NCBI GenBank assembly: GCA_030650095.1
Contig: JAUSEE010000007.1
Coordinates: forward strand, 16,812-80,811
Direction of reading: 5' to 3'
Source: Candidatus Buchananbacteria bacterium
GTDB lineage: Bacteria; Patescibacteriota; Patescibacteriia; 2-01-FULL-39-33
Length of the DNA: 64,000 bases
In this document: positions 4,580 to 42,975 of the stretch, one piece after another
How positions within the stretch are numbered: the stretch's first letter is position 1
How the letters are laid out: each line of letters opens with the position of its first letter
The notes under the pieces: generated by a model
Told to the model about the DNA's origin: nothing
Seen by the model: only the letters and a program-made list of their open reading frames with translations
Databases searched by the model: none
Program-made: the position numbers and the translations under genes

Positions 4580-5611
4580 TTAAGGTACGTCAGTATTGGT
4601 GTTAGTATCAATTGGTTCGGTTATCAACTTAAAATTCCTAATAATCATTTCAAAGACCGAGGGATAGCGGAATTCAGACATATTATCCAAATCATATTCA
4701 AAAGCATAAATCTTATCTCTTTTTTGATCGGTAATATAAATGCCCAGATTATTAGGCGAACGCACACCCTTGAAATTGCCGAATTCTATGTTGCCCAATT
4801 GGCCTAAGGTGATTTGGGGATGATTTAACAAATACCAATTAGCGGCTGAAATCTGATCATCATTGCTTATGACAGAAATTTTTATCATCTCCCCTGTGCC
4901 CGTAATTATCCTGGCCTCATGCAAAGCTTCAATCAAACTGACAGACCAACCCTTGATATAAAGCGTTTGAAAATTATTAGTTGGAAAATTAGTGCTTAAC
5001 TTACTGATGAAAGCCGCCTCCGCTAAAAGAAAGGGATTGCCGCTGCTGGGACTGACAATTGGATTATAACCTCCAATAAACTCATCGCTGTCCAAATAAC
5101 CGTCTAAATCGGAATCAGGCGAACTGGGCGAAGAACCGATTAAGGCTTCTTCTAAATCGGTTAGCTTGTCCTTATCGGCATCACCGCTCAACGCGGGCGG
5201 CACCAAATCATTAATGTTGCTATTAGTGTTTCCATTGGTATTAGTATTGGCATTAGTATTTATATTTTCATTCGTATTAAGATTGCCATTTTCATTGGTG
5301 TTGCTGTTTTCATTAACATTAATATTTCTATTTTCATTCTCATTGGTATTAATGTTTTGATTGGTAAAAGTTATATTTTGATTAGCCAATTGATTGGTTG
5401 AGTCCTGATTATTTTGCAGCGTATTGTACATAAAATAAGACACCGAAGAAACCACTATCAGTAGCAGAATAATCACCACTATGGCCAAGGCCTTATTGGA
5501 AGAACGCTGGGCTTTCTGGGGATGAAATTTTTCCGGCATAACATAAACATCCTCTTGGGAAGGGGCGGGTAAATTAGCAGGCATGATATTATCTTTTTTA
5601 GAGCCAAACAT
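4580..5611 (-). CDS. Membrane-anchored protein with an Asn/Thr-rich low-complexity tract, an Asp-rich (DSDLDGYLDSDE) segment and a C-terminal globular domain; function unknown
   Basis: One N-terminal TM helix (AIVVIILLLIVVSSVSYFMY) followed by NTNENxN repeats. The gene lies 3 nt downstream of the next gene in the cluster. Confidence 0.5.
   Translation of the reverse strand: MFGSKKDNIMPANLPAPSQEDVYVMPEKFHPQKAQRSSNKALAIVVIILLLIVVSSVSYFMYNTLQNNQDSTNQLANQNITFTNQNINTNENENRNINVNENSNTNENGNLNTNENINTNANTNTNGNTNSNINDLVPPALSGDADKDKLTDLEEALIGSSPSSPDSDLDGYLDSDEFIGGYNPIVSPSSGNPFLLAEAAFISKLSTNFPTNNFQTLYIKGWSVSLIEALHEARIITGTGEMIKISVISNDDQISAANWYLLNHPQITLGQLGNIEFGNFKGVRSPNNLGIYITDQKRDKIYAFEYDLDNMSEFRYPSVFEMIIRNFKLITEPIDTNTNTDVP
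5200..5400. repeat. Imperfect codon-level AAT/ACx microsatellite-like tract encoding Asn/Thr repeats
   Basis: Reiterated aat/aac/act/gaa triplets on the coding strand within the 343-aa protein gene. Confidence 0.6.
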
Positions 5612-5646: not shown

Positions 5647-6396
5647 TTAGGGCACATTAAACAGCCTGGCGCCGCCGCCTTTAGCCGGATCAAAGCCGTT
5701 TACAACTTCGTCGCCATCATTATAACCATCGCCATCGGTATCTTTTTTAAGCGGATCAGTATTGTAAATCCTAACCTCTACCCGATCAATCAAGCCATCG
5801 CCATCGGTATCAAAATTATTAGGATTGGTGCCTAATTGTTTTTCTTCTTCATCACTTAGACCGTCATTATCACTGTCTGGGCCAAGAGAAACATTGGCAT
5901 TGGCATTGGCATTTGTTTCGGCGTTAATATTAGCATTTTCATTGGCATTGGCATTGCCATTTGTTTCGGTATTGGTATTAGCGTTAGCTTCGGTATTGGT
6001 ATTGACATTAGTATTTATATTGGCGTTTAAATTGGCATCGGGGCCTGATGTTTTGGAAGTAAAGAAACTGACAGCGGCGAAGACTACTCCGCCGATTATA
6101 GCTAGGCCGATTAAAGATAGAAGCACTACCAGAGCTTTATTTTGAAACATAGAACGGCCGCCAAAAACATCGGGACTAACTGCCATCTGAGAAGCTTGGC
6201 CTGGTTGCATTGGACGAGAAATCCGAGGCGATGAGGGCGTTTCGGTTTCAGAAAAAATATCCTCCACCTGGGGCGGTCTGGGAACTGCCGGAGCAGGTTT
6301 AATCCTGTCATCTGGCAAGTTCAGAGGCGGCGGTGATTGCTTTCTGGGTTCACTGGGCATGGGGCCTGATGGCGCCATAGGGTTTTGATCAAACAT
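5647..6396 (-). CDS. Single-pass membrane protein with a Pro-rich cytoplasmic N-terminus, an N/T/A-rich extracellular tract and C-terminal TSP3-like Asp-rich Ca-binding repeats; function unknown
   Basis: Pro-rich stretch PPPLNLPDDRIKPAPAVPRPP, TM helix LVVLLSLIGLAIIGGVVFAAV, NANANTNT repeats and the motif DTDGDGLID..DTDGDGYNDGDE. Confidence 0.5.
   Translation of the reverse strand: MFDQNPMAPSGPMPSEPRKQSPPPLNLPDDRIKPAPAVPRPPQVEDIFSETETPSSPRISRPMQPGQASQMAVSPDVFGGRSMFQNKALVVLLSLIGLAIIGGVVFAAVSFFTSKTSGPDANLNANINTNVNTNTEANANTNTETNGNANANENANINAETNANANANVSLGPDSDNDGLSDEEEKQLGTNPNNFDTDGDGLIDRVEVRIYNTDPLKKDTDGDGYNDGDEVVNGFDPAKGGGARLFNVP
5880..6060. repeat. Codon-level tandem repeat tract (GCN-AAT / ACN-AAT) encoding Ala/Asn/Thr repeats
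   Basis: Reiterated ggcattggcattggcatt-type units within the 249-aa protein gene. Confidence 0.6.
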
Positions 6397-6447: not shown

Positions 6448-9400
6448 TTACATTCTAAATATCCTACCTAAAAAATTGAATAACAAATTACCAATAACAT
6501 TTATTAAATTGAATAACTTATTGGGGCCCGACGCTTCTTCTGCTATTCCAGCTACATTACCGCCGACTGCCTCTGTTTCCAAAGCTACATAACCAGGATA
6601 ATAGGGGCAATAGCCCAAATTAAGATTGGACATGGAGAAATCAAAACCGGCTCCAGAAACACTGACTCTTCTGTTGTTGCCATTATCTGTGCAAAAACCG
6701 GCTGGCAAATTAATCTCTTGGCCCGTTAAAGAGGCTGAACCGGAAACTGGAATATTAACAGAAAAATGAGTTGTGGCCGTATCTATAGCGACATCAAAAT
6801 TAACCTTTAAATTATCCATTATATTAGAAATAATGCTGTTATAAAGAGCTGTTAAATTGCCGGTATCACCAAAATAACAGAAGCCACTACCGCAACTGCC
6901 ATCACCATCATTGGATGATATTTTATTTAATTCTACCGGATCAGCATCGGCCCCATAAGATACTGAATATATAAGGGTCTTGGGAATACTCGGATCTAAC
7001 GGATAATTTTTGATATTAGATGCGAAATTTATACCATCTGGGCGACCATAAACATTACAATTATATCTATATCTTCCTCCACGAATAAGACATCCGCCAC
7101 CTCCATCACTAACATATGTCTTACGACAATTGGGATAATTATTTTCGTCGTCCCCACAATCAAGCATATTAGTAGCTTGACCATCACTCATTAGTACTAC
7201 ATATTTATTAAGAGCTAAATTATTAGGAGTGGTGGCTGAACTGATGATTTCTTGGGCCTTCACTAAAGCATCAGATGGATTGGTTCCGCTCCAACTATTA
7301 TAGCCACTATCAGCTTCATAAGCATTAACAATGCCTCTTAAGACATCAATTTGATCAACGCCACATAAAGTATCAGAACATTGTGAACTTGATACATCAT
7401 TTTGAGCTCTTAAAACAAAACTTACCAAGCCTATTTCTGCATCAGGAATTGCCTCAAAAATATCCTCTATAGTTGTAACCAAGCTCGATTTTAAAGGAGT
7501 AAGCTTATCTTCGCCTATAACCATACTAGCTGATAAATCATTAACAAAAACTATAATCGCTTTGGGAATAGTAGCATTGATAGTAAAATTGGCTTTAAGC
7601 TTATTAAATTCATTGCAGGCCGGCACGCCGCTAATTGTAGCCAAACTAGGCGAACCGGAAAAGGCGCTTAAAGTGAGAACGGAATTATCATAAGGCGGGC
7701 AAGCTTGCCAATTGCAACTGCTCTGGCACAGATGGCCATAAGTGCCAACACCGGGTTCACATTGCTCTTGAGCTGCCTGCACTGTTCCATCTCCACACCA
7801 GCCGCCCGAATCTTGACAGACATTATTGCAAGCCCACTGGTTGGTGGAGCTCTCACCTTCTCCCCAGCCGAATGATCCGTCACTAAGAGTAGGAGATCCA
7901 TCGGGTTTTGTACCTTCACATTGTTCATTGATTGCATTCCATTCGCCGTCATGGCAATAGGGGAAAATCACGGTTTGATCAACGCAGGCGCTGGTGCAAT
8001 AATGGCGGGTGACAGATGTTAGATTCCAAAAAGGCATGAAATAATTATTCAAATTAGCTCCGGGAGGGATGTTGTGGGTGGTATAAGTTAAACCGGTATT
8101 GCCACAATCAGATGGGCCCGACAAGGGGCCAACGGCATCACCGCAATCACAAGTTTCGGTGGCTTGTTTTAAACCATCACCGCAAAGTGGCACGATACAA
8201 GTGCTGGGAAGGCCGGAACAAGTCCAATTTGGCTCTATAGCGCAAACATTGGAACAGCCATCACCGGAAAAGCCATTGCCATCATCGCAAGTTTCAGATT
8301 GGCCACGGCCGTTCAAGCCTTGGATAACACTATCGCCGCAGAAAGTGGCGGCGCTACACTGCGCGTTGCAAGTTCCGGCATTGGTGTTATTACCATCATC
8401 ACAAGCCTCGCCGGCCTGCACTACACTATCACCGCAATCCGGCAAAACACAGGCATCGGGAGCCTGATCAGGGTTATAATCATTAGGACAATTATCGCAG
8501 GCGTTGCCTACGGTATCGCCATCATTATCAGCTTGGTTGCAAGCCGACTTTTCTAGCGGTCCCAAATTGCCATCGCCGTTTCTATCAAAACAAGTAGCTA
8601 GCGAAGCGCTGGAGCCATTTTTAATACTAGCGCAATTATCACAGGCGTTGCCAATATTATCGCTGTCCGTATCAGGCTGGGTAGGTGGAGTTCCTACTTT
8701 GGGGTTATAATCATTAGGACAATTGTCACTGGCATTTAAAATGCTATCGCCGTCGGAATCAATATCAACAGAATCCGGGGTGCAAGACCAAGTAGCGCCT
8801 GTTTGGCGGCAAGAATTACCGGAAGAACAAACGACATCAAACGGACAAGTGCTGCAATCCTCATTATCTTCTAGTGTACTAGGATTGTTATCTGGACCAT
8901 CTAGATCTTCTATTCCATCACCGCAAGTGCCGGAAAATGCTCGGCAAATACTGCTAACAGCTAAAGTAAAGGGATCACCGTCCATAAATCTAACTTGTGA
9001 CCAATCAGCCGGGCGCCAAGAACCACTAATAAATTCTTTGAAAGCGTAAACATTTTTAATGACACCGTTATTATTGGCAAAATAAGCATAAACTCTGGCG
9101 GCTGTCGGACATTGCATTGATTTGGCCACATCGTTCCAACAAGTTATGGAATCATAAGGAGACTCACAGCCATCAAAACCGGAACTGGTGTTTAAAGGAT
9201 CGACAGGCAAGGCTGAACCCAAAACATTGCCAAGCGTAGCCTGCCAAGACGGCCAGACACTAAAGCTGCGTCCGGAGATATAAGTGCCGGAGGGCAAGTC
9301 GGGATAAAAATTACCGCAAGTGCCGCCGCCATAACACTCCGCGCTGTTAACGCAAGTAATAAATTTGTCATTACTGCAACGCTTTTGATTATGATAATCA

Positions 9401-12400
9401 TCTAAGAGCCAATTTATATCTTGAATATCGCCCAAACGCTTGGTATCACGGGCTAATTTGGTTTTATTGGAAGTGCAAGCTCCGGCCTCTACCGCGTCAC
9501 AATCGCTGCTGTCCCAACACTTATAAGAGTCATCGCCTTCGCAAGTGCCAATATTAGGTATGCCTCCGGCAAAAACCGAACCGACATTGAATTTCATAAA
9601 TTGAGCCATCTGAGCATAGATATTTTGCGTATCACTGTCCGCTCCCTCGCTGTAGGAAATTAAATAAATATTAGGATACAGGGCTCGAGCGTTGGTCGGT
9701 CGACCGTCTGGGCCGGCTGTGTCCGGCTCAACATTTATAGCATTAGCATAAATGGTTCGTCCTTCTTTAATAGCTTCATAACCGTTAACGGTTAAGCTTT
9801 GCGGATTGCCTTGGCGCGTAGGATCAAAATTCTCTCGATACCAAACCAGGGGTGAATAATGGTTGTCATTGGCTACCACCCTTATGCCCACGGCATCGCT
9901 TTTGTCGGTTCTTTGCAATAAAAATTCTTTTTTAAACGGATTACCGCCATAAACTATGGTGCTGGTATCCAAGTCCGGCAAATCGTCGGCCTCGCCCTCT
10001 TCGCCGTTATCACGACAATAATAAACTTCAAAATTGGTATTAGGACAAGGCGTGCCGCCGCAATTATCGGCTGCGTCACGATAAGGGAATGATCTGGGAG
10101 CTGGCCAAGGATTGGAACATAAAAATATTTTAATATTAACCTCTTTTTCTTTGGTAGAAGATGCGCCTTCGCCAGAGGGAGGATTTTGAGTGGCTCCAAC
10201 TGTTAGGACATCTTGGCCGTCTATAGCCCCAGTTACTCGGGCGCTTCTTAAATTAAGCCACTGATCACCGGAATAATCCGTTAGATCAAAATCAGATACG
10301 GCTAAATCAAACTTTGGCAAACCAGCTACATCCCAATTAAATCCGCCTTCGGCTTTGATTAAAAAGCCAGCGTCATTAACTGCCCAAGCCATATAAAGAT
10401 GCTGATTCTTGGCCAAATTAGGATCAATGGTGTTAGCGCCATCAACCCTTAAATAAGGAAAGTCGTAATCTTCGGTCGGTGCATCAACATTGGAACCGGA
10501 AGAAATATCGTTGTCGTAGCCATCGGCTGTATGAAGGCCGCAATCATCGCCCACGCAGAAAAAATTATCATCGTATTTTTCTTCGCCTCTGGGCCAGATT
10601 TCCACTTTAACATCACTGAGCTGGCAATATCTTTGAATTGTCACTTCTTTGGAAATTTTAGGCACATTATTTACAATCGGATCAAAATCTCCTTCGTAAA
10701 CACTTATTTTATATCTTTTATTCTTTTCCCAATAGCCGTTTTTAATGAAGCTGTAAATATGGCTATCCTGATTCATATATTCCAATCTTTCTTCAAAATT
10801 AGTGGCGTTTTGACTAACCACCGAATAACCGGCGCCGCAGCCATCACTTGAACCGGCTGAAGCGCTACTAGTAAAAAATTGGGAGATAGCTAATTTTATT
10901 TTGGAAATAATCTTGCCCCAGATAGTATCATCCGACATGGCTAAAGCGTCTCTTTTGCAAATAAAAATACTATTGGCGCTAATATCGCCTCGTTTGGCTA
11001 AAACCTGCCAAATGCCATTGGAACAATTATTCATATTAATGATTACTGCCGGATCATTAACCGCCGAGAAGGTCCAGGAGAAACTGTCGGCTTGACCGGC
11101 TTCCACTAAATCATTGCCGCAAACGGAATTATAAGCGACATTTGAGCCTTCTAAAAGACAAGTGCTGCCACAGCCGTCGTTAGTATTTTTATTGCTGTCA
11201 TCGCAATCTTCGCCTTGTTCTTTGATGCCATTGCCACACACTGGAACATTGGCAGAGGAACCACTGGGACGACCGGATTCTTTTAGACAAATACTGGAAC
11301 AGCCATCGCTGGAAGTGGTATTGCCATCATCGCAATTCTCGCCATATTCAATACTGGCGTTGCCGCAAAGTGATCCCCACCTATCGCTAGAGCCCTCCCA
11401 CAAACAATTCGATCCACAGCCATCATCACCATTGGCATTTCTATCGTCGCATTCTTCTTTGGCTGTTTCTACCACGCCATTGCCGCAAGAGGCTGTATTA
11501 TTATTGCCTTCATTATGGCAGGTGCCGCTGCAATAAGCAGATCCTGCCGGACACTCGGCAAACCGTCCGCCACATAGGTTAAGCAAGGGATTTAAAAGAC
11601 AACTGGCACCACAAACACCAGCTTGTTCTGTCCAAGGATAAATACCCGGTTCGCATTCCTCGCCTCCGCCTTCACCGGTGCTATTAAAATTCAATCTACT
11701 TAATTGGTTATTATTCCAAGCTATCAATCCATCTTCCCCGCCTTTTACAACTACCCTGTACTTTGATCCAATTTCATAATCAGTTGCTGATTTAACAGTG
11801 GTTTTTCTGGATAATTCCAAACCGCCGGAAGTTGGGGGCAAAACCGCCTCCAGTGTCTTAGGAGATAAATCAAACACCGGACAATCATTATTGCTGGTGT
11901 ATAAATATCCAACCTCGTTAGAAGTTAGAGCTCTGTCGTAAAATCTGACATCATCAATTAAGCCATTCCACATGCCGTGAATATTGTTATCAGCCCGATG
12001 GCCGATTCTACTTGGAACACCGGGGCTATAAGCTACAGATGCTGGTACATTAGTTATATCTTGAGCAACCAGTGCTCCATTTATATATAGTCTAACAGAC
12101 TGGCCCGGCTGATAAACACCCACGACATGCGTCCATTTATTTAAATTATCACTAAAGAAATTATTTTTATTGGCAATAGCAAAATTACCACTGCTATCAT
12201 AAACAATAAACTGAAAATGATCGGGTGGCGGACAAGGGCTTTCCTCATTTCCGGTACAACCCCAGAGATCACCCAATAAAAATCCTCGCTTCTTAGCGTC
12301 ATCTTCGTCATAATCATAATTAGAAAATACTACCCGGCCTAAGGGACTTTCCGGAGCCATCGGTTTCACCCAAGCCGAAACAGTTAGAGCGCCGGTGACT

Positions 12401-15400
12401 TTCAAATTATTATTTGTTATCTCAACATATTGTCCGGCATTACCTCGAAAGTTAAGCGCTTGGCCAAAATAGCCGGCAACATAAGAGAGACCTTTCACCA
12501 CCGCCTCATTGGAATTGCCAGAATTATCACTGGCGCTATTATCAAATTGATAATAAGCTTCGGCGTTAGTGCATTGATAAAGTTTAACATTATCGTTAAT
12601 CCTAAATGAGCTCATTTTAGCATCAATGTTAAAATCAATATTGATCAGCCTGTCTTCAAAATGAGTCAAATCCCTAGGACTGTATTTTATGACTGCCAGT
12701 TCGCCATAGCCAACCTGCAAATGGCCATAACCCCAGCTGTTTCCAACGTCAGCTCTGATATTGGTTTCGCCGTCTAAGCCGGCGGTGGCAGTTTGGACCG
12801 GATCAATTAAGCTATCGCTAAAGCCGCCGCAAATGCCAGTTTGAACATTTAATTTGGTAATGGAAGCTATGAGATCGCCGGTTTCACTGCTGTCGCCTAA
12901 TTCTATAAGCGATCGCCAAGTCCAATTAAGGAGACAGCGAGCTAGAATATTACAATTGCTGGCCTGAGGAAAAGCGTCATACTGACTGGTTTGATTGACA
13001 AATTCCAAGAAATTTTCGGCCGGGGTAACTTGAACCTCGCTAACCTCGCAAGTCTGAGTGCTGGTTTTAAAAACCCAATAATAATCATCAAAGTTATCGC
13101 CGTTATAATCCCAGCCGTCGCTTACCATAGGAATAATACTGTTTTCGGTTAACAAGACGCCATCAGGAATACCATCGCCGGAGCTATCGGCTCCGCCTAC
13201 CCCATCGGGACCGCCTAGAATAATCACCCGATACCACATATTAGAATCCAAATACTCATCAGCGGTTGCCTCTCCTTCCAAATCTTGGCTATTTATATCA
13301 ATAACAAAACCTTCGGCTGTGCCTTGGCCAAATTGATTGCTGCCGGCCAATAAATCTTCAACATTAACACTATGGCTATAGGTAAATATCCTTAAGCTGG
13401 AAGCTTCGGCTATTTTGATGCTTTTACAAGCCGGGAAAGCATCTTCAAAATCATCGCTGCCGTCGCATCTTTCCACAATAATATTGCCGTTGGCCGTGTC
13501 ATAGCCTTCGGTAATATTAGTGACTGTGTTTAGGGTTAAGCTGGGATTATCCATATCACGGCTGAACCTAGCAGCAATAAGAGCATTGCGGCAAGCATCT
13601 TTGGAATTAATCCAAGGAGTAGGGCTTTGGATAGATCCTCTGGAACAGAAAGCGCTTTCCATAACCACTGGATTGGTAAAATCAGTAATCACCCGGCAAT
13701 AATCATTTTGGCCGGTTTGCGTTAATTCGGCCAACACTTTGGTGAAACCAGGAATAAGATTATAATTTTCGCCGTAAGCCGTGCCTATTTGCTCCGGCTC
13801 TCCGCCAGTATTGGTTATTTGAACCTTAGATTCGTCTTCCGAAGACCAATCCCAATTATAAGCCCAGGGATCGATCATCAAGCAGACATTATCCTTACTG
13901 ATAAGATCAGTGCTGAATTGCTGTGTTTGGAAATAATAATTTAAAGTTTTAGGATCGGGATTGCATTCCGGACAGCCCGGATCACAATAAGCATTGGTTG
14001 TCCTGGTTTGAAAATTCCAGCAATAAACCGCATCAGTTATGCCGGAGACATTGCAAAATCTGTCGGCTACGACTTGATTATTAACAGCCATATCCACATT
14101 AAACAAACTCTTGATGCCACTGGTTAAAACAATTTTATACCAAGAACCAGCTTCAAAAGTAGCCGGACTGCTTATAGTGGGACTGCCGAATTTAAAATAA
14201 TCCCTTACGCCGTTGTCGGCCGGATAAACTGCAACCTCCCCTGTCACCAGAGTACAACTGGTGCCTTCTTTAGTGGTGCATTTATAAACTCTAACATGAT
14301 CTTCAACTGATTGGGCATTCATTTTTTGAGTGAACCGCGCCGAGATAGTGGCATTAATGCAAGCCTTAGGATCCTGGATTGATAATTCCGGATGAATAAT
14401 TGGATCCCAACCTTCGGTGGCTCCGACACCTTCATACCACGGAGCAGGACTGGGCAGTTTCTGATTGGGATAACAAGAAGCGACACGGCTGCAATCTTCT
14501 ATGACTTGCGGCGGTGTAAAACCATAGCCGTTGCCGTAGATAAAGGCCCAAGCAAAAATAGATTGGACAGCCGGATCAACTGTTACTCCCGGTGAACAAG
14601 TCGGATCAGTTTTTGTGCAAACAGCATCATCCCAACTACCGCTAACCGGGCAAACTTCGGTAGCTGTACAAGGAGAGAAATCGTCGCAACTTCTGGAGAA
14701 CCCAGGTTCGCAAGCATTGACTACCACTTGGCAGGTACAACTTTGGTTGGGATCGCAAAATAATCCGGTGTTACAAACATTGGCCGCCGAACAAACACTG
14801 GCTCCAGGTTCACCGCAAGGATCGCCTATTTCGCCACGGCTGATTATAAAATTATAATAATTGCTATATTCTGTACCATTATAAATCCTAATACTGGTGG
14901 TGCCTACGCCGCTTTCCGGCACTATGTCGCTAGCTAAAATGGAGCTAAGCCAGTCTACTTCCGGACTGGAAAAAATATCCGGTTGGAAATTCCACTGGAC
15001 TTGGCCGTCGGGAGAAGTGGGAAAATTATTACCGGCAATTTCTATCGGATTAGGATTAACCCCATAAACAGGGTCAATGGAACAAATACCCGGACGTTCT
15101 ATAGTGTTAACTGTAAATTCCTTAGAGTTGCTGGTTAAGCCGATATCATTTTCCACCACAACTTGATAATTATCCAAATCCACAGTGGGAACTTTGAAAA
15201 CAATTTGAGTATCGGTCCAGCCATTGATACAATCAGTGGCCGCATTGATTTCGCCATAAGCCACTATAACATCATCTTTTATCAGCATAACCGATCCAGG
15301 ACCAGCGCCAAAATGTCGTCCCCAAATAGTAATATAATTATCAACAGCTCCGTTATTCGGCTCCAGACTGTAAATAACCGGAGCAAAAGCACAAGTGCCA

Positions 15401-16380
15401 TCGTGCAGACAAACACCGGAAGCACAATCACTATCCTCGGTACAGCTGCCACCATCGCAAGCGCCGCAATAATCATCACCTAAAACAGCCGGATCGCCGC
15501 CGCAATCAACGCCGGTTTCGCCTTGGTCTTGAACATTATTAAAACAATGCAAGGGTTTGATAATAGTTTTGACTTCGCGAGATTCAATTGTCTTATCACC
15601 AGATAATAAGGCTGATATTTTAGCTTTATACTGATCATTAATAGCATAAGAGAGTGAATTCCAAGAAGCAAAAACATTATTAACAATTTCCTGATCTGTC
15701 GGCACATCAGAAAACGGGCTCTGAGCGGTAAAAGAACCGGCCAAAGGCGCCGTAAATAATTCCATGCTGACAACAGTGCCATCGCGATTTTTGGCATAGC
15801 CTCCCACCTTTAAATTTTCGCTATTGGGTATTCTAGCCACGCCGCTAAAAGCGGAGCCGATAATCCTCGACCAAGGAATGGAATCATCCTTGAATTTATT
15901 TATATAAGTGTATTGATTAGAAGTGCTGGGCGTACAAGGCGGATTATCGCAAGTGGGCGTACAAGGCGGCGTGGGGCAAGAATCAGTGGGACAATCCGCG
16001 CCCTGGCAGGTTGGTATGATACTGATGACAAAAGTAGCGATAAGAAAAGCCGACAAAATAATTATCAGTCCGATAACAGCCGAAATTAGTGTTCTTTTGG
16101 CTTTAGCTATTTTGTTAGCATCACCACCAGCCGTCATCCAAAGATAACCGCCCCACATAATTATAATTACTGCCACCAAGCCTAAAAATCCTAAGATAAA
16201 CCTGATGATATTAATTATAGTAATTCGTAGATCACCTTGAGCTAAGCCAACGCCGGCGGCGTTTTCCAAGCCAAACCGATCTTGAGCTAAAGCTAAATTA
16301 AAAATGCCAAAAACGCCAATAACCACAAAAGCTATAAGCGTTGATAAAATAATTTTTTTAATTGTCTTATTTAATCTCAT
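6448..16380 (-). CDS. Giant (3310 aa) secreted, membrane-anchored multidomain surface protein. It has a VirB2/TrbC-pilin-like N-terminal 2-TM module, a Cys/Pro linker, Cys-rich (Myxococcus-type) repeats, a LamG/concanavalin-like domain, TSP3 repeats and a vWA domain.
   Basis: Single 9.9-kb ORF. N-terminus: ...NLALAQ DRFGL..AAGVGLAQGDLR..FILGFLGLVAVIIIMWGGYLWMTAGGD..KAK..VIGLIIILSAF. LamG end motif LIDDVRFYDRALTSNEV at about nt 11.9-12.6 kb. CGNG..E.CDDGN..DGC repeats at about 11.1-11.5 kb and 8.1-8.4 kb. TSP3 repeats DSDGD..DNCPNDYNP at about 8.45-8.8 kb. vWA MIDAS motif DLSASM ... VVLMSDGQATN at about 7.17-7.56 kb. Confidence 0.8.
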   Translation of the reverse strand: MRLNKTIKKIILSTLIAFVVIGVFGIFNLALAQDRFGLENAAGVGLAQGDLRITIINIIRFILGFLGLVAVIIIMWGGYLWMTAGGDANKIAKAKRTLISAVIGLIIILSAFLIATFVISIIPTCQGADCPTDSCPTPPCTPTCDNPPCTPSTSNQYTYINKFKDDSIPWSRIIGSAFSGVARIPNSENLKVGGYAKNRDGTVVSMELFTAPLAGSFTAQSPFSDVPTDQEIVNNVFASWNSLSYAINDQYKAKISALLSGDKTIESREVKTIIKPLHCFNNVQDQGETGVDCGGDPAVLGDDYCGACDGGSCTEDSDCASGVCLHDGTCAFAPVIYSLEPNNGAVDNYITIWGRHFGAGPGSVMLIKDDVIVAYGEINAATDCINGWTDTQIVFKVPTVDLDNYQVVVENDIGLTSNSKEFTVNTIERPGICSIDPVYGVNPNPIEIAGNNFPTSPDGQVQWNFQPDIFSSPEVDWLSSILASDIVPESGVGTTSIRIYNGTEYSNYYNFIISRGEIGDPCGEPGASVCSAANVCNTGLFCDPNQSCTCQVVVNACEPGFSRSCDDFSPCTATEVCPVSGSWDDAVCTKTDPTCSPGVTVDPAVQSIFAWAFIYGNGYGFTPPQVIEDCSRVASCYPNQKLPSPAPWYEGVGATEGWDPIIHPELSIQDPKACINATISARFTQKMNAQSVEDHVRVYKCTTKEGTSCTLVTGEVAVYPADNGVRDYFKFGSPTISSPATFEAGSWYKIVLTSGIKSLFNVDMAVNNQVVADRFCNVSGITDAVYCWNFQTRTTNAYCDPGCPECNPDPKTLNYYFQTQQFSTDLISKDNVCLMIDPWAYNWDWSSEDESKVQITNTGGEPEQIGTAYGENYNLIPGFTKVLAELTQTGQNDYCRVITDFTNPVVMESAFCSRGSIQSPTPWINSKDACRNALIAARFSRDMDNPSLTLNTVTNITEGYDTANGNIIVERCDGSDDFEDAFPACKSIKIAEASSLRIFTYSHSVNVEDLLAGSNQFGQGTAEGFVIDINSQDLEGEATADEYLDSNMWYRVIILGGPDGVGGADSSGDGIPDGVLLTENSIIPMVSDGWDYNGDNFDDYYWVFKTSTQTCEVSEVQVTPAENFLEFVNQTSQYDAFPQASNCNILARCLLNWTWRSLIELGDSSETGDLIASITKLNVQTGICGGFSDSLIDPVQTATAGLDGETNIRADVGNSWGYGHLQVGYGELAVIKYSPRDLTHFEDRLINIDFNIDAKMSSFRINDNVKLYQCTNAEAYYQFDNSASDNSGNSNEAVVKGLSYVAGYFGQALNFRGNAGQYVEITNNNLKVTGALTVSAWVKPMAPESPLGRVVFSNYDYDEDDAKKRGFLLGDLWGCTGNEESPCPPPDHFQFIVYDSSGNFAIANKNNFFSDNLNKWTHVVGVYQPGQSVRLYINGALVAQDITNVPASVAYSPGVPSRIGHRADNNIHGMWNGLIDDVRFYDRALTSNEVGYLYTSNNDCPVFDLSPKTLEAVLPPTSGGLELSRKTTVKSATDYEIGSKYRVVVKGGEDGLIAWNNNQLSRLNFNSTGEGGGEECEPGIYPWTEQAGVCGASCLLNPLLNLCGGRFAECPAGSAYCSGTCHNEGNNNTASCGNGVVETAKEECDDRNANGDDGCGSNCLWEGSSDRWGSLCGNASIEYGENCDDGNTTSSDGCSSICLKESGRPSGSSANVPVCGNGIKEQGEDCDDSNKNTNDGCGSTCLLEGSNVAYNSVCGNDLVEAGQADSFSWTFSAVNDPAVIINMNNCSNGIWQVLAKRGDISANSIFICKRDALAMSDDTIWGKIISKIKLAISQFFTSSASAGSSDGCGAGYSVVSQNATNFEERLEYMNQDSHIYSFIKNGYWEKNKRYKISVYEGDFDPIVNNVPKISKEVTIQRYCQLSDVKVEIWPRGEEKYDDNFFCVGDDCGLHTADGYDNDISSGSNVDAPTEDYDFPYLRVDGANTIDPNLAKNQHLYMAWAVNDAGFLIKAEGGFNWDVAGLPKFDLAVSDFDLTDYSGDQWLNLRSARVTGAIDGQDVLTVGATQNPPSGEGASSTKEKEVNIKIFLCSNPWPAPRSFPYRDAADNCGGTPCPNTNFEVYYCRDNGEEGEADDLPDLDTSTIVYGGNPFKKEFLLQRTDKSDAVGIRVVANDNHYSPLVWYRENFDPTRQGNPQSLTVNGYEAIKEGRTIYANAINVEPDTAGPDGRPTNARALYPNIYLISYSEGADSDTQNIYAQMAQFMKFNVGSVFAGGIPNIGTCEGDDSYKCWDSSDCDAVEAGACTSNKTKLARDTKRLGDIQDINWLLDDYHNQKRCSNDKFITCVNSAECYGGGTCGNFYPDLPSGTYISGRSFSVWPSWQATLGNVLGSALPVDPLNTSSGFDGCESPYDSITCWNDVAKSMQCPTAARVYAYFANNNGVIKNVYAFKEFISGSWRPADWSQVRFMDGDPFTLAVSSICRAFSGTCGDGIEDLDGPDNNPSTLEDNEDCSTCPFDVVCSSGNSCRQTGATWSCTPDSVDIDSDGDSILNASDNCPNDYNPKVGTPPTQPDTDSDNIGNACDNCASIKNGSSASLATCFDRNGDGNLGPLEKSACNQADNDGDTVGNACDNCPNDYNPDQAPDACVLPDCGDSVVQAGEACDDGNNTNAGTCNAQCSAATFCGDSVIQGLNGRGQSETCDDGNGFSGDGCSNVCAIEPNWTCSGLPSTCIVPLCGDGLKQATETCDCGDAVGPLSGPSDCGNTGLTYTTHNIPPGANLNNYFMPFWNLTSVTRHYCTSACVDQTVIFPYCHDGEWNAINEQCEGTKPDGSPTLSDGSFGWGEGESSTNQWACNNVCQDSGGWCGDGTVQAAQEQCEPGVGTYGHLCQSSCNWQACPPYDNSVLTLSAFSGSPSLATISGVPACNEFNKLKANFTINATIPKAIIVFVNDLSASMVIGEDKLTPLKSSLVTTIEDIFEAIPDAEIGLVSFVLRAQNDVSSSQCSDTLCGVDQIDVLRGIVNAYEADSGYNSWSGTNPSDALVKAQEIISSATTPNNLALNKYVVLMSDGQATNMLDCGDDENNYPNCRKTYVSDGGGGCLIRGGRYRYNCNVYGRPDGINFASNIKNYPLDPSIPKTLIYSVSYGADADPVELNKISSNDGDGSCGSGFCYFGDTGNLTALYNSIISNIMDNLKVNFDVAIDTATTHFSVNIPVSGSASLTGQEINLPAGFCTDNGNNRRVSVSGAGFDFSMSNLNLGYCPYYPGYVALETEAVGGNVAGIAEEASGPNKLFNLINVIGNLLFNFLGRIFRM

Positions 16381-16389
16381 AAATGAAAA

Positions 16390-19302
16390 CTATGGTTTGG
16401 GCACGCAAGTTCCAAAACAACAACCCGTACTGCCATCGCCTAAAACAGTTGAATGATCTTTGGTAATAATCCAACTACCGCCTAAATCTGTCGTGGTGGC
16501 ACTCTCATCATAATATAAAACCTTGCAAAAATTATCTGTCGAATCGCATTCATTGGCGTTTTCTATTTCCGGACAATTTAAATAACCATAAGAAGCCGGA
16601 TTAGTGGGCAAAACCGGAGCGCAACCAGCCGATAAGGCGTACCCGTTATAACTGCAGATCTGTCCTGATTTAGCAGCTTCTTTGGGGCCAGCGCTAGGCA
16701 GAAAACAATTCTGGCTGATTGATTGGAGGCCAGAACCGGCCAGCGGGCCATATTTGGTGGCTAAATCAAAATCATTATGGTTTAAGCTAGCCTTGGTAAA
16801 ATCAGCCCAGCCGTCGAAATTTTGATCCAAATCATTTTTTAAAGACCAATAGCCGACCGGCACAGCTGATTCGCTGATGGTTTGTAAAACCAAATATCTG
16901 ACTGATTTTTCCTTTGGAGTAGAACCGTAATTCCAACCTGGTTTTAGGGTAGAACTGCGCATCAATCTATCAAAGCTAAAATCAACTTTAGTTTTCGGGC
17001 TGTTAATTTGATCATCACCTACCGGTTCATCGGTTTTAAGCAGCGGAGCCTTTTTGTCTATCTCGCTGGAAATATTAAATGACCAGGAAAAATTATCACC
17101 GAAACCACTAAGGCCAAAAGCCGGAGTTGATGAACCGTAGCTTACCACTCTTGACCCAGGAGCAGAACAATCGCCTGGCTGGCAGATTATGCCTAAATTC
17201 AAATCATACTTACTGCGTCCGGATTTGCCTTCGCCACTGCCTGATTGACCTTGGGCAATGCCTATGGTTTTATTATTGTATTGATAAGTGTCAAAACTGC
17301 CGTTGAAAGCATTAAAACTCATATCCACCAGGCCGTTCATTTGCGGAGATAAAGGATAAAATACTTGCTTGCCATCAACAGTCTTAAGACAGCGGCCATG
17401 GCCATCACTTATTCCGCCCCAAGCCGAACATTTGGCGTCACTGGCGTTCATCAGGGTAGCCGAAGAAATCTCTACCTCATAAGGCTGGGCATTGCCAGAA
17501 ACCGGCCAACAGAACATAGTATCGCCGCAGCTATTTGTGCCACATTCATCGGGAGCCACCAGTTCTATCGTTTTATATTGATTGGATATTTCCACTGTAT
17601 AGCCGGTAATTGCAACACCAGCTCTTTTGACAATGATGCTATCTTCTATAACCGACGGATTAACCGCTTCATTGAAATTAATTTGAATGATTGTATTCCT
17701 ATAAGCGTCAGGCAGACCATTGGGCTCGCGATTCGGCTGCTGATCTTGGCCATTAGTTTTAGTAATAACGAAGTTGCTACTGGTGCCGATGAAATTTAGA
17801 TTATATTTAGCGGTAGCGGCGCCAGTCTGCTTGGTTTGAACGCAGTTAGCCCCGCAAGTTTCAAATAGATTGGTATCACTTATTAATTTATCATCAAAAC
17901 CGGCTGGATTAGGAATATCGGTGCCAAAAGTGTAGGTTTTAATAGTAGTGCTATTATCTTTAAGTTCCAATTTATCTCCATCTTGGTGAGCCACGACATT
18001 AAAAGTCCAAGAATTGCCACGGGCCACGACACCATCAGCATTAAAGACCAAGCCGTACGGACCTATATTCAAAATGGCTCCAGGCGGATCAAATTGGCCG
18101 CTGTTAAATGTGCCCATAGTTCCTGGCCAAGTGGTTTTTATTTCTCCAGTGCCGGAATCAACCCTAACTGTAACCAAGCCGGTAGCTGTACCGCCATAGT
18201 TGCCAGTAATGATTCCGGAAATAGTAGTGCCGCCCCCCTTAACAGCAGTACTATCGAAGGACGACAATGTTTCTAATCTAATATTAGCCAGAGTTAGAGC
18301 CACGGAAAATTGAGTGGCTGTCGGGCCGGAGGCCACGCCATAATCATCCAGCAAATCATCTGGGTAAGGATAAACACCAGCTAGATTAATAATTTCGGGC
18401 GGATCCAAATCTAATTCTCCATTAGTGGTAAATTGCCAAGCGTACTCTTCATTAAATAAGTTATCAAAGACTGATTTACCAGGCTCAGCCACGGTTTCTA
18501 TGCCTGACTTTAGATTGACCTTAAACCTCCGGTTGGCAAAATCTTCTAAGCCCAGATATTTATTTGGTATGATAGTAAATGTTCTGTCGTCATTACTGTC
18601 CACTATGCTGCCGGAAAAGGCGCCAACAGAAAATTCTTCGCCTTCTTCCTGACAGATGCCGTTATTATCAACTTGGCAGATTTCTATATTGGTCATGGCC
18701 GTATCAGTGCCGTTACAAACAGCCGCTCCACAGATAGTCTGGGGATTAATTTTTTCCTTGAAAGTCACAGCAATAGCGGTATTAATCGGCACATCAACTT
18801 GCCCCGGAGACGGATAAACGCTTTCAATCGGTCCTACGCCAATGCCCCAACGGCCCAAATCGCCAGGACCGCCGCCACCATGGCCATAGTCGCCACCGCC
18901 ACCAAAACCAGCCAAGATACCAATAATAAAAGCGGTTATAATATAGGATGATAAAATAATAATTATGCCGATAACCGTGTTAATCAGTATTTTTTTGGCT
19001 TTCTCAATTTTAGCCGGGTCACCGCCGGAAGTCATCCAAACAAATCCGCCATAAAGCACCATAATAACCGCAAAGATGCCTAAAAATCCCAAGATAAGTT
19101 GGATAATCCGAACAATAGCTACTCTTAAATCATTTTGAGGCAAGCCGATAGCCGCCGCATCAGCCAAGCCAAAACGGTTTGGAGCTTGAGCCAAGCCTAC
19201 ACTGGGCAAAATTAAGAGTAAAAAAAACGCCAAGAAAGATACCAAGAGTACTCTTTTGGCGATTTTCGACTTCTGCATGGATGAAAGCCGTGGACTAAAC
19301 AT
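16390..19302 (-). CDS. Large (970 aa) secreted, membrane-anchored surface protein with the same VirB2/TrbC-pilin-like N-terminal module, a Gly-rich linker, multiple beta-rich extracellular domains and a Cys-rich C-terminus
   Basis: N-terminus: ...SVGLAQ APNRFGL..AAAIGLPQNDLR..LILGFLGIFAVIMVLYGGFVWMTSGGDPAKIEKAKK..VIGIIIILSSY. Gly-rich linker GGGGDYGHGGGGPGD. The gene ends 9 nt upstream of the 3310-aa gene. Confidence 0.75.
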   Translation of the reverse strand: MFSPRLSSMQKSKIAKRVLLVSFLAFFLLLILPSVGLAQAPNRFGLADAAAIGLPQNDLRVAIVRIIQLILGFLGIFAVIMVLYGGFVWMTSGGDPAKIEKAKKILINTVIGIIIILSSYIITAFIIGILAGFGGGGDYGHGGGGPGDLGRWGIGVGPIESVYPSPGQVDVPINTAIAVTFKEKINPQTICGAAVCNGTDTAMTNIEICQVDNNGICQEEGEEFSVGAFSGSIVDSNDDRTFTIIPNKYLGLEDFANRRFKVNLKSGIETVAEPGKSVFDNLFNEEYAWQFTTNGELDLDPPEIINLAGVYPYPDDLLDDYGVASGPTATQFSVALTLANIRLETLSSFDSTAVKGGGTTISGIITGNYGGTATGLVTVRVDSGTGEIKTTWPGTMGTFNSGQFDPPGAILNIGPYGLVFNADGVVARGNSWTFNVVAHQDGDKLELKDNSTTIKTYTFGTDIPNPAGFDDKLISDTNLFETCGANCVQTKQTGAATAKYNLNFIGTSSNFVITKTNGQDQQPNREPNGLPDAYRNTIIQINFNEAVNPSVIEDSIIVKRAGVAITGYTVEISNQYKTIELVAPDECGTNSCGDTMFCWPVSGNAQPYEVEISSATLMNASDAKCSAWGGISDGHGRCLKTVDGKQVFYPLSPQMNGLVDMSFNAFNGSFDTYQYNNKTIGIAQGQSGSGEGKSGRSKYDLNLGIICQPGDCSAPGSRVVSYGSSTPAFGLSGFGDNFSWSFNISSEIDKKAPLLKTDEPVGDDQINSPKTKVDFSFDRLMRSSTLKPGWNYGSTPKEKSVRYLVLQTISESAVPVGYWSLKNDLDQNFDGWADFTKASLNHNDFDLATKYGPLAGSGLQSISQNCFLPSAGPKEAAKSGQICSYNGYALSAGCAPVLPTNPASYGYLNCPEIENANECDSTDNFCKVLYYDESATTTDLGGSWIITKDHSTVLGDGSTGCCFGTCVPKP

Positions 19303-42971: not shown

Positions 42972-42975
42972 ACAA

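What the first reader, a model, noticed from the sequence alone, without database searches (positions are those of the whole stretch)
6448..16380. The 3310-aa protein is a mosaic of eukaryote-like adhesion modules (Cys-rich repeats, LamG, TSP3, vWA)
After the anchor and a Cys/Pro linker (CQGADCPTDSCPTPPCTPTCDNPPC), the protein shows four recognisable modules. (1) Cys-rich repeats C-G-N/D-G-x-x-E-x-G-E-x-C-D-D-G-N...D-G-C-S-x-x-C in two clusters at about nt 11.1-11.5 kb and 8.1-8.4 kb; this is the Myxococcus-type cysteine-rich repeat pattern. (2) A LamG/concanavalin-A-like domain at about 11.9-12.6 kb ending DDVRFYDRALTSNEV. (3) Thrombospondin type-3 Ca-binding repeats (DSDGD..DNCPNDYNP.., DTDSDNIGNACDNC) at about 8.45-8.8 kb. 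(4) A vWA domain with an intact MIDAS motif (DLSASM...SDG) at about 7.17-7.56 kb. This combination on one 10-kb gene suggests Ca-dependent, integrin-like ligand binding. Hundreds of cysteines imply an oxidising extracytoplasmic compartment.
Basis: partly seen in the sequence, partly recalled or inferred. Interest (0 to 1): 0.6.

Follow-up and report, generated by a model that had tools for sequence, protein, structure and literature searches.

The report
Giant pilin-anchored surface adhesin of Patescibacteria
This 10-kb gene of an ultra-small Candidatus Buchananbacteria bacterium encodes a real 3310-residue surface protein that carries lectin, calcium-binding and integrin-like binding modules on a pilin-like membrane anchor, and it belongs to a large, unstudied family that sits at the same chromosomal spot in many related species and probably mediates attachment to a host cell.

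Summary
ORF 6448..16380 (-) encodes 3310 aa with 144 Cys. All four modules are supported:
- LamG: 90.9 bits.
- Six Myxococcus-type Cys repeats: 121 bits.
- TSP type-3 repeats: 28.9 bits on the tight segment.
- vWA domain: confirmed by an orthologue profile (Mfa5, 9e-13) and an AF2 model. The MIDAS is complete (D2948, S2950, S2952, T3033, D3066).

- The "anchor" is a VirB2/TrbC-type T4SS pilin module, 40-77% identical to free ~117-aa Patescibacteria pilins.
- The best conserved part is a 390-aa core (aa 2080-2470) with no Pfam or PDB match. It defines about 1,700 clusters of mostly 3,000-4,000-aa proteins.
- The gene lies in a conserved cluster: pilin+Big_5 gene, giant, then two TSP3 membrane proteins. 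In 24 loci ybeY follows, usually with ftsA and ftsZ.

The scaffold is conserved (core ~80% identity). The C-terminal vWA region evolves fast (27-43%), and the LamG module is a cassette that some orthologues lack.

Best reading: a membrane-anchored, disulfide- and Ca-stabilised host-attachment fibril. Whether the pilin module polymerises is open.

I found no reverse transcriptase, no template repeat and no sign of mis-assembly. "Eukaryote-like" is a misnomer.

The parts
16285..16380 (-). Signal peptide, aa 1-32, with predicted cleavage after ALA before QD
   Evidence: Hydropathy peak at aa 14-25. The motif A-Q-x-x-RFGL is shared with the upstream paralogue.
16015..16284 (-). VirB2/TrbC-type T4SS pilin module: two TM helices (about aa 52-78 and 97-122) joined by the basic loop TAGGDANKIAKAKR
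   Evidence: PF18895 scores 35.8-39.9 bits (cut-off 26.6). PF04956 TrbC scores E 1.8e-4. Hydropathy supports the two helices. The module is 40-77% identical to stand-alone 83-194-aa (mostly about 117-aa) Patescibacteria pilins.
15916..16014 (-). Cys/Pro-rich linker, aa 123-155
   Evidence: Read directly from the translation.
12484..15381 (-). Ig-like stalk: TIG/IPT (aa 334-423), Cys knots, and Big_5-like domains (e.g. aa 674-760)
   Evidence: TIG scores 23.5-30.2 bits (cut-off 20.9). Big_5 scores 23.1 bits, marginal. The region aligns in about 90-119 of 119 homologues.
11818..12483 (-). LamG/concanavalin-A-like cassette, aa 1300-1521 (Pfam match aa 1315-1490)
   Evidence: PF13385 scores E 1.2e-25. 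The cassette is cleanly absent from the colinear orthologues P0004 and P0007.
11158..11487 (-). Cys-rich acidic repeats, cluster 1: three full copies at aa 1632-1741
   Evidence: TIGR02232 and DUF4215. Regex map. DNA repeat family D2.
8971..10143 (-). Family-defining conserved core, aa 2080-2470. It has no Pfam or PDB sequence match. It contains a PsbP/Mog1/LpqN-like subdomain, a long helix and disulfide knots.
8431..8793 (-). Thrombospondin type-3 Ca-binding repeats with the Cys pattern DNCPxxxNPxQ...GxxCDNC
   Evidence: PF02412 scores 28.9 bits. COMP and TSP-2 hits. DNA repeat family D3.
8101..8436 (-). Cys-rich acidic repeats, cluster 2, aa 2649-2760
   Evidence: DUF4215, 4 stretches. Regex map.
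6811..7560 (-). vWA domain with complete MIDAS (D2948, S2950, S2952, T3033, D3066) and Cys-rich inserts
6607..6807 (-). C-terminal beta-sandwich ending in the invariant Y-C-P
   Evidence: AF2 strands 268-331, pLDDT 76-92. YCP is invariant in alignment A2.
6451..6555 (-). C-terminal tail: invariant VAG (aa 3276-3278), usually followed by x-x-E, a spacer, an amphipathic Leu/Phe/Asn helix and basic end residues
   Evidence: Conserved in 9 orthologues and in further family members. The helix is predicted at low confidence.
16390..19302 (-). Upstream partner gene: 970 aa, with the same pilin module plus Big_5. It ends 9 nt before the giant gene starts.
   Evidence: PF18895 and PF13205. phmmer E 1.5e-34 to the giant's N-terminus. 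Conserved in position in 33 loci.
5647..6396 (-). Downstream partner D1: single-pass membrane protein with an Asn/Thr-rich linker and three bacterial TSP3 repeats
   Evidence: PF18884 scores E 1.4e-22. Sequence. Synteny.
4580..5611 (-). Downstream partner D2: single-pass membrane protein with an Asn-rich linker, TSP3-like acidic motifs and a C-terminal domain of unknown type
   Evidence: No Pfam hit. Sequence. Synteny.

Best explanation
The gene encodes a Sec-exported giant surface fibril of a Candidatus Buchananbacteria (Patescibacteria/CPR) cell.

Shown:
- The N-terminus has a signal peptide followed by a VirB2/TrbC-type helical hairpin. This topology puts the remaining ~3,190 residues outside the membrane.
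- The outside part consists of a conserved scaffold (Cys/Pro linker, TIG and Big_5 Ig-like domains, Cys-rich acidic repeats, and a Pfam-less core) plus exchangeable binding modules (LamG cassette, TSP3 repeats, and a C-terminal vWA domain with complete MIDAS).
- The gene is one of four co-oriented, tightly spaced genes. The others are a shorter pilin+Big_5 paralogue and two TSP3-bearing membrane proteins. This cluster is kept at one chromosomal position across many Patescibacteria.

Inferred:
- The hairpin holds the protein in the cytoplasmic membrane.
- Disulfides and Ca2+ (TSP3 repeats, acidic repeats) stiffen a long stalk.
- The fast-evolving distal vWA/MIDAS module, together with LamG, binds protein or glycan ligands on a host cell surface. 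This would give the epibiont its attachment and host specificity.
- The four products probably form one surface complex.
For: - Module identities.
- Topology: signal peptide plus two TM helices with a Lys-rich loop. PF18895 and TrbC hits.
- 144 Cys, concentrated in the ectodomain.
- Scaffold versus tip: the core is ~80% identical among five orthologues and the vWA/C-terminus 27-43%. The LamG cassette is present or absent among colinear orthologues. LamG aligns in roughly 10 of 119 homologues and the vWA region in roughly 10-20, whereas the pilin, TIG, Big_5, Cys-repeat and core regions align in about 90-119.
- Family size and range: 262 hits, mostly 3,000-4,700 aa, all named hits from Patescibacteria lineages. 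1,710 cluster representatives match the core.
- Cluster conservation: upstream gene, giant, D1 and D2 occur together in 33 of 45 loci; the rest are cut by contig ends. ybeY follows in 24 loci, usually with ftsA and ftsZ.
- In some lineages the gene is split and the distal half has its own Met and signal peptide, so it is an exported unit.
- Precedent: giant membrane proteins of CPR bacteria have been proposed as host-attachment factors (PMC8080830). vWA and ConA-like lectin modules grafted on pilins mediate adhesion in S. sanguinis (PMC8179133).
Against: - There is no experimental or expression data. No ligand can be named.
- The protein's own vWA sequence is below the Pfam threshold, and the MIDAS is lost in two of nine orthologues. 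Metal-dependent binding is therefore not the conserved function of the family.
- The most conserved element, the core, has no known function. Its PsbP/LpqN-like subdomain is a generic binding fold.
- Strict single-locus vertical inheritance next to ybeY, usually with ftsA-ftsZ, fits a housekeeping envelope role as well as it fits host-specific adhesion.
- The pilin module is so close to free pilins that "anchor only" may understate its role.
Confidence: 0.6

Rival explanations
1. Modular VirB2-type pilin. The N-terminal module is extracted from the membrane and polymerised by the Patescibacteria type IV secretion system into a conjugative-type pilus. The giant ectodomain is displayed at the tip or sparsely along the shaft. 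It would then be the host-contact adhesin of that T4SS, functionally like VirB5 or PrgB, and analogous to the modular type IV pilins PilB and PilC.
For: - The module is 40-77% identical to genuine stand-alone pilins that occur in tandem arrays.
- VirB2-like pilins and a T4SS are near-universal in Patescibacteria and essential in S. epibionticum. No PrgB-like adhesin was found in that survey (PMC12102498; PMC10633639).
- The passenger is fused to the pilin C-terminus. From memory, this end is surface-exposed in F-type pili and tolerates fusions.
- The A2 profile hits the vWA module of pilin PilB.
Against: - No VirB4, VirB6 or other T4SS gene lies in the 64-kb window or within 10 kb of the orthologues. 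All seven ORFs of 500 aa or more are accounted for otherwise.
- A ~3,190-aa passenger on every subunit cannot pack in a helical filament, so only tip or rare incorporation is possible.
- The reported VirB2 homologues were treated as small proteins.
- Polymerisation cannot be tested here.
Confidence: 0.2
2. Structural envelope component. The four-gene cluster builds an S-layer-like or sheath-like coat, or a division-associated envelope scaffold. In this reading the adhesion-type modules serve lattice or cell-wall contacts, not host binding.
For: - One conserved chromosomal position in each of the 41 species-representative genome loci recovered, between yqeY and ybeY (usually followed by ftsA-ftsZ), in genomes of about 1 Mb.
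- The scaffold and core are far more conserved than the binding modules.
- Partner proteins have Ca-binding TSP3 repeats.
- S-layers are reported as prevalent in Patescibacteria (bioRxiv 10.1101/2024.05.28.596244).
Against: - A 3,310-aa multi-module chain with a fast-evolving distal tip and cassette gain and loss is typical of adhesins, not of lattice-forming S-layer proteins.
- There is no match to known S-layer families.
- Linkage to ftsA/ftsZ is absent in the split-gene lineages.
Confidence: 0.15
3. Target of a diversity-generating retroelement. The C-terminal ligand-binding region would be hypermutated from a template repeat by a reverse transcriptase.
For: DGRs are common in CPR bacteria (general knowledge), and the C-terminus is the most divergent part of the protein.
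Against: - There is no direct repeat linking the gene to any other place in the window. The only repeats are the intragenic module repeats.
- No credible ORF carries a YxDD reverse-transcriptase motif.
- No RT domain was found in the 40 proteins scanned: the giant plus 39 other window ORFs.
- The C-terminus is a vWA domain plus a beta-sandwich, not a C-type-lectin fold.
Confidence: 0.02
4. Assembly artefact: a chimeric ORF joined from unrelated fragments.
For: None, beyond the prior that repeat-rich giant genes are hard to assemble.
Against: - Orthologues of 3,258-3,349 aa from independent assemblies are colinear along the whole length at 52-68% identity.
- The flanking gene order is identical.
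- GC content shows no break.
Confidence: 0.01

Closest known systems
Modular type IV pilins PilB (vWA module) and PilC (ConA-like lectin module) of Streptococcus sanguinis (PMC8179133, PMC9934059)
   Same: Adhesive vWA/MIDAS and ConA/LamG-type modules are grafted C-terminally onto a small pilin module. The A2 profile hits the PilB structure 7b7p (E 2e-8).
   Different: - The pilin module here is VirB2/TrbC-type (signal peptide plus helical hairpin). It is not a class III signal-peptide type IV pilin, and the giant has no N_methyl hit.
- The passenger is about 3,190 aa with more than 10 modules, instead of one.
- Assembly into a filament is unproven.
VirB2-like pilins and pilin arrays of the Patescibacteria T4SS (PMC12102498; PMC10633639)
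   Same: Same Pfam family PF18895, same topology, and 40-77% identity over the module. The giant and its upstream paralogue form a two-gene pilin "array".
   Different: - Those pilins are about 83-194 aa with no passenger.
- The survey found 1,135 of 1,948 assemblies with a pilin gene near virB4. This locus has no T4SS gene.
Giant membrane proteins of the CPR predator Vampirococcus lugosii (PMC8080830)
   Same: Proteins of 1,392-4,163 aa from a CPR bacterium with adhesion-type domains, proposed to mediate recognition of and attachment to the host.
   Different: - Different lineage (Absconditabacteria) and different domain sets (WD40, PKD, DUF11, integrin, fibronectin).
- No pilin module or conserved cluster is reported.
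- Homology was not tested here.
vWA tip adhesins of other pili: Mfa5 (P. gingivalis type V pili), RrgA and SpaC (sortase pili)
   Same: vWA/MIDAS adhesin modules displayed on a filament or stalk. These are the best sequence and structure matches of the C-terminal module (Mfa5 9e-13; SpaC and RrgA).
   Different: They are anchored and assembled by other routes: lipoprotein/gingipain processing or LPXTG sortase. No LPXTG motif is present here; the tail carries VAG plus an amphipathic helix instead.
Giant repetitive T1SS adhesins (SiiE, LapA, MpIBP)
   Same: Very long, Ca2+-stiffened Ig-like stalks with ligand-binding modules near the distal end.
   Different: - Those are secreted C-terminus first by type I secretion through an outer membrane, carry RTX repeats, and are made of tens of near-identical Ig repeats.
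- This protein has an N-terminal Sec signal, no RTX hit, and heterogeneous modules rich in disulfides.

Membership tests
von Willebrand factor A domain (PF00092) | Sequence match to the family profile | tested here: inconclusive
   The protein's own sequence scores 17.8-18.1 bits against a cut-off of 23.8. However, 8 of 9 orthologous segments match (best 2.4e-13), and the orthologue profile hits solved vWA domains at 9e-13 to 1e-2.
von Willebrand factor A domain (PF00092) | Rossmann-like alpha/beta fold | tested here: met
   The AF2 model shows an alternating beta-alpha pattern. The 21 Foldseek PDB matches with E <= 0.001 include factor B, C2a, MIC2, TRAP, SpaC, integrins and TFIIH p44, all vWA-containing proteins.
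von Willebrand factor A domain (PF00092) | MIDAS motif DxSxS...T...D | tested here: met
   D2948, S2950, S2952, T3033 and D3066 are present. The motif is complete in 6 of 9 orthologues and degenerate in P0006 and P0009. Metal binding itself is not testable here.
Thrombospondin type 3 repeat (PF02412) | Profile score above the gathering cut-off, plus the Asp-rich Ca-binding motif with conserved Cys (DxDxDGxxDxxDNCPxxxNxxQ) | tested here: met
   28.9 bits against 25, with 3 repeats. COMP and TSP-2 alignments keep the Cys positions. Ca2+ binding is not testable.
LamG / concanavalin A-like (PF13385 Laminin_G_3) | Profile match over the whole domain | tested here: met
   E 1.2e-25, 90.9 bits, profile positions 3-150 of 151.
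Myxococcus cysteine-rich acidic repeat (TIGR02232 / DUF4215) | Repeated C-G-x-G-x-x-E-x-G-E-x-C-D-D-G-N...D-G-C-S-x-x-C units | tested here: met
   121.4 bits against 20.8, 6 copies. DUF4215 scores 57.8 bits. Repeats mapped.
VirB2/TrbC T4SS pilin (PF18895 / PF04956) | Profile match and the topology signal peptide, TM helix, basic loop, TM helix | tested here: met
   PF18895 scores 35.8-39.9 bits against 26.6. Hydropathy supports the topology. Close stand-alone pilin homologues exist.
VirB2/TrbC T4SS pilin (PF18895 / PF04956) | Small protein (about 100-150 aa) consisting of the pilin only | tested here: not met
   The protein is 3,310 aa, and the pilin module ends at about aa 122.
VirB2/TrbC T4SS pilin (PF18895 / PF04956) | Encoded with T4SS machinery (VirB4 etc.) | tested here: not met
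   None is present in the 64-kb window or within +/-10 kb of three orthologues. The rest of the genome was not available.
VirB2/TrbC T4SS pilin (PF18895 / PF04956) | Polymerises into a pilus | not testable with these tools
   This needs biochemistry, cryo-EM or multimer modelling.
Modular type IV pilin (sensu PMC8179133) | N-terminal class III signal peptide / IPR012902 N-methylation motif | tested here: not met
   The giant has no PF07963 hit. By contrast, the unrelated gene at 24343-25326 does have one. The giant resembles this family in design only.
DGR variable protein | Nearby reverse transcriptase plus a template/variable repeat pair; C-type-lectin or Ig-like variable region | tested here: not met
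   Only the 64-kb window could be searched.
Sortase-anchored (LPXTG) surface protein | C-terminal LPXTG motif, hydrophobic helix, basic tail | tested here: not met
   The tail is ...GNVAGIAEEASGPNKLFNLINVIGNLLFNFLGRIFRM. It has no LPXTG, and its maximum hydropathy of 1.36 is below that of the N-terminal TM helices.
RTX/T1SS giant adhesin | RTX nonapeptide repeats and a C-terminal T1SS signal | tested here: not met
   No RTX or HemolysinCabind family appears among the Pfam and NCBIfam hits.

The most novel reading that the evidence does not exclude
The family would be the first example of a modular VirB2-type pilin. [quoted passage not shown] The conserved four-gene cluster would then encode the missing adhesin complex that docks the epibiont and its T4SS on the host. 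The Pfam-less core would be a new domain, and the VAG-x-x-E plus amphipathic-helix tail a new C-terminal sorting or assembly signal.
Probability: 0.2. Interest if true: 0.8.

Novelty: new variant of a known kind. Interest (0 to 1): 0.55.

Why it matters
Patescibacteria make up a large share of bacterial diversity. The few cultivated members live attached to other cells. How the uncultivated majority recognises and holds a host is unknown.

This gene takes up about 1% of a ~1-Mb genome. It is kept at one chromosomal position across several candidate phyla: Buchanan-, Magasanik-, Falkow- and Uhrbacteria.

It combines a conserved scaffold with a fast-evolving, exchangeable binding end. That pattern is expected of a host-specificity determinant.

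Its N-terminus links it to the VirB2-like pilins of the T4SS that is essential in Saccharibacteria. The published survey of that T4SS found no adhesin.

The family therefore offers three concrete leads:
- A candidate for attachment and host-range studies.
- A new conserved domain to characterise.
- A marker locus for comparing host specificity between related genomes.

If the protein is only one more multi-domain adhesin, the result is still useful. It replaces generic database names with a defined family and gene cluster.

Tried and rejected
- **DGR.** A whole-window direct-repeat search found only intragenic module repeats. A six-frame YxDD scan hit only hisS and a shadow ORF. Rejected within the sequence available.
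- **T4SS neighbourhood.** Pfam scans of 39 other window ORFs found no VirB4, VirB6, VirB8 or VirD4.
- **Pilin-like core half.** I suspected the C-terminal half of the core (LPxDPLN...YxYxxxxxxYxLxAxLE) is a type IV pilin or pseudopilin-like head. No search supported this, so I dropped it.
- **AFDB search.** The library was unavailable.
- **Locus search with the 25-sequence core alignment.** It was too diverse to give patterns. I repeated it with 8 orthologues.
- **Promoter and terminator scan.** Promoter-like counts were near the shuffle expectation. Terminator-like counts were above it, but none fell in the intergenic gaps. It was not informative for operon structure.
- **Literature.** Seven searches and eleven papers read gave no description of pilin-fused giant proteins or of this cluster. 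The library covers open-access papers only, so absence is not proof.
- **Rfam and tRNA scans.** They found nothing inside the gene.
Full report
**Observation**

The minus-strand ORF 6448..16380 is uninterrupted and encodes 3310 residues. It has 144 cysteines (4.35%). They are concentrated at about aa 100-160, 300-350, 500-600, 1600-1760 and 2500-2900. The exact sequence is in NCBI as MDO8668894.1, named "LamG-like jellyroll fold domain-containing protein", from a Candidatus Buchananbacteria metagenome-assembled genome in the Patescibacteria/Parcubacteria group.

- LamG is unambiguous: PF13385, E 1.2e-25, aa 1315-1490.
- The Cys-rich repeats are the Myxococcus-type repeat: TIGR02232, 121 bits, six copies, and DUF4215. 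Three copies lie at aa 1632-1741. The rest lie at aa 2649-2760 and beyond.
- The TSP3 repeats scored below threshold on a broad segment. On aa 2530-2650 they pass the Pfam cut-off (28.9 bits against 25). The orthologous segments also pass. They align with the type-3 repeats of COMP and thrombospondin-2, including the cysteines.
- The vWA domain is weak on its own sequence (about 18 bits against 23.8). Other evidence supports it:
  - Eight of nine orthologous C-termini match PF00092.
  - Their profile finds solved vWA domains, led by the fimbrial tip protein Mfa5 (9e-13) and including the pilin PilB.
  - The AF2 model (pLDDT 67, with a confident core and disordered inserts) matches only vWA folds.
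  - All five MIDAS residues are present.

There are 144 cysteines, not hundreds.

1. The N-terminal "anchor" is a type IV secretion system pilin module.
   - It matches PF18895 at 36-40 bits, with a weaker TrbC/VirB2 hit.
   - It has the family's topology: a signal peptide, two hydrophobic helices and a Lys-rich loop.
   - A database search with aa 1-135 returned about 120 stand-alone pilins of 83-194 aa, at 35-77% identity. Some are named "pilin" or "VirB2 component".
   - Two of these were inspected. They sit in tandem arrays of 2 and 10 pilin genes.
2. The most widely conserved segment is not an adhesion module. It is aa 2080-2470, which has no Pfam hit.
   - It aligns in 110 of 119 homologues.
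   - In a search of 1.84 billion cluster representatives, 1,710 proteins matched (1,288 below 1e-30). Most of the 150 best matches listed are 3,000-4,000 aa, with the core near residue 2,000.
   - Its AF2 model is fair (pLDDT 77, pTM 0.78).
   - It has no PDB sequence relative and no Foldseek match.
3. The gene is part of a conserved cluster.
   - Directly upstream, 9 nt away, is a 970-aa paralogue with the same pilin module plus Big_5.
   - Downstream are two single-pass membrane proteins with Asn/Thr-rich linkers and bacterial TSP3 repeats.
   - The order lytR, lepB, hisS, yqeY, [pilin-Big_5], [giant], [TSP3 proteins], ybeY, ftsA, ftsZ recurs in orthologues at 68% and 51% identity. It also recurs in a distant homologue on a 1.0-Mb chromosome.
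   - In 41 further species-representative loci the four-gene core is present wherever the contig allows. Counting all 45 loci, 33 show it. ybeY follows in 24 loci, usually with ftsA and ftsZ.
   - Named taxa include Buchanan-, Magasanik-, Falkow- and Uhrbacteria.

**How the family evolves**

- Among five full-length orthologues the alignment is colinear. Identity is about 80% in the core, 53-55% in LamG and 27-43% over the vWA domain and C-terminus.
- The LamG cassette (aa 1300-1521) is cleanly missing from two otherwise colinear orthologues.
- The MIDAS is intact in six of nine, has one substitution in one, and is degenerate in two.
- In about a dozen related loci the gene is split just before the core's PsbP-like subdomain. 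The second ORF starts with its own Met and signal peptide. The distal half is therefore an independently exported unit.
- Together this describes a conserved scaffold with an exchangeable, fast-evolving distal end.

**Mechanism**

Shown:
- Export signal and membrane hairpin.
- An extracytoplasmic, Cys-rich multi-module chain.
- Ca-binding repeats, and a complete MIDAS at the far end.
- Conserved partner genes.

Inferred:
- The hairpin anchors the chain in the membrane.
- Disulfides and Ca2+ stiffen the stalk.
- The vWA/MIDAS and LamG modules bind protein or glycan ligands on a host cell.

Two published points bear on this. Giant membrane proteins of another CPR bacterium have been proposed to mediate host attachment (PMC8080830). 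In Streptococcus sanguinis, vWA and ConA-like modules grafted on pilins are adhesins, and the PilB MIDAS binds Mg2+/Mn2+ but not Ca2+ (PMC8179133). I give this reading 0.6.

**Rivals**

- T4SS-assembled pilus (0.2). The pilin module may be polymerised by the Patescibacteria T4SS, which would make this a modular VirB2-type pilin and the T4SS adhesin.
  - In favour: the close similarity to free pilins, and the report that no adhesin was found in the T4SS survey (PMC12102498).
  - Against: no T4SS gene lies nearby, and the passenger is very bulky.
- Structural envelope or S-layer-like role (0.15). This fits the fixed locus and the conserved scaffold. It fits the variable tip poorly.
- DGR targeting (0.02). 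No evidence was found.
- Mis-assembly (0.01). The colinear orthologues exclude it.

**Comparison with known systems**

- In design, the protein works like a modular pilin or pilus-tip adhesin (PilB/PilC, Mfa5, RrgA, SpaC) and like Ca-stiffened giant adhesins (SiiE, LapA).
- It fails the defining features of those families. It has no class III signal peptide, no LPXTG and no RTX repeats.
- It meets the sequence and topology criteria of the VirB2/TrbC pilins. It does not meet their size or gene-context criteria.
- Searches of the open-access literature found no description of pilin-fused giant proteins or of this cluster. NCBI names for family members are generic domain names, and no NCBIfam equivalog matches.

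**Verdict**

The framing as "eukaryote-like" and "integrin-like, Ca-dependent" is only partly right.

What makes the locus worth attention is its context:
- A large, uncharacterised, vertically inherited family of giant proteins in Patescibacteria.
- A T4SS-pilin N-terminus.
- An unknown conserved core.
- Conserved partner genes.

I rate it a new variant of a known kind, with interest 0.55.

Noticed in passing
window 6451-6555 (aa 3276-3310); also P0002-P0007, P0009, P0012, P0015, P0314, P0318, P0322, P0336, P0363: The C-terminal tail has an invariant VAG, usually as VAG-x-x-E. It is followed by a 10-17 residue spacer, an amphipathic Leu/Phe/Ile/Asn-rich helix and basic end residues. This three-part layout recalls sorting signals such as LPXTG or PEP-CTERM but matches none of them. 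Most other family members end directly at the ...YCP motif.
   Followed up: partly
loci L015, L016, L019-L022, L024, L026, L039, L040, L042, L044 (junction near locus position 9840-11010): In these related species the giant gene is split in two. One ORF is a pilin-bearing protein of about 1,700-2,300 aa. The other is a core-bearing protein of about 1,000-1,500 aa that starts with its own Met and a typical signal peptide, just before the DAIGVRV...NxxHYS motif. This looks like a true gene fission at a domain boundary. In these loci ybeY-ftsA-ftsZ do not follow the cluster.
   Followed up: partly
loci L030, L032, L033, L036-L038, L043: Here there is a short form of the giant gene (about 1,750-2,060 aa). 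It ends soon after the FLCxNPWP motif and lacks most of the core and everything distal. It is still flanked by the same partner genes.
   Followed up: no
window 16390-19302 (-): This is a 970-aa paralogue with the same signal peptide and pilin module (E 1.5e-34 to the giant's N-terminus), a Gly-rich linker, Big_5, and a Cys-rich C-terminus. It is always found directly upstream of the giant gene.
   Followed up: partly
window 4580-5611 and 5647-6396 (-); DNA repeat family D1 at 5205-5364 and 5888-6053: Two single-pass membrane proteins have long Asn/Thr-rich low-complexity linkers (NANTNTE...-type, visible as 6-24-nt periodic DNA repeats) and bacterial TSP3 repeats. They are conserved partners of the giant gene. 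The C-terminal domain of the 343-aa protein has no Pfam match.
   Followed up: partly
window 62712-63992 (-): A 426-aa protein combines collagen triple-helix repeats (E 1.7e-19) with a LamG domain (E 1.7e-23). It is a second LamG-bearing surface-type protein in the window.
   Followed up: no
window 56261-58516 (-): A 751-aa protein combines a gametolysin-type peptidase M11 domain (E 3e-15) with a Big_7 Ig domain. This family is best known from Chlamydomonas cell-wall lysis.
   Followed up: no
window 53112-53169 and 53211-53268 (+): Two 58-nt direct repeats, 98% identical and 99 nt apart, lie upstream of tRNA-Asp (53430-53504). Rfam and ARAGORN recognise neither.
   Followed up: no
window 42749-43436 (+): There are two tRNA-Met (CAT) genes, at 42749-42821 and 43030-43102. 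Each is followed about 100 nt downstream by one copy of an 87%-identical 61-nt repeat (42916-42976 and 43205-43265). This points to a local tandem duplication. tRNA-Leu follows.
   Followed up: no
loci L005, L008-L012, L015, L016, L023, L027-L029, L032, L033, L035, L037-L039, L044 (record titles): Many third-party-assembly records that carry this Patescibacteria-specific cluster are titled "uncultured Gammaproteobacteria bacterium". Their gene content and synteny match Patescibacteria, so the titles look wrong.
   Followed up: no
window 24343-25326 (+): A type IV pilin-like protein has an N-terminal methylation motif and a DUF1559 domain. The genome therefore also has type IV pilin-class proteins, which are distinct from the VirB2-type module of the giant.
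   Followed up: no
locus L047, 8318-13296: This is an array of ten tandem PF18895 pilin genes (119-231 aa) in a Patescibacteria contig of 526 kb. No VirB4 lies within 10 kb. One member is 54% identical to the giant's pilin module.
   Followed up: no
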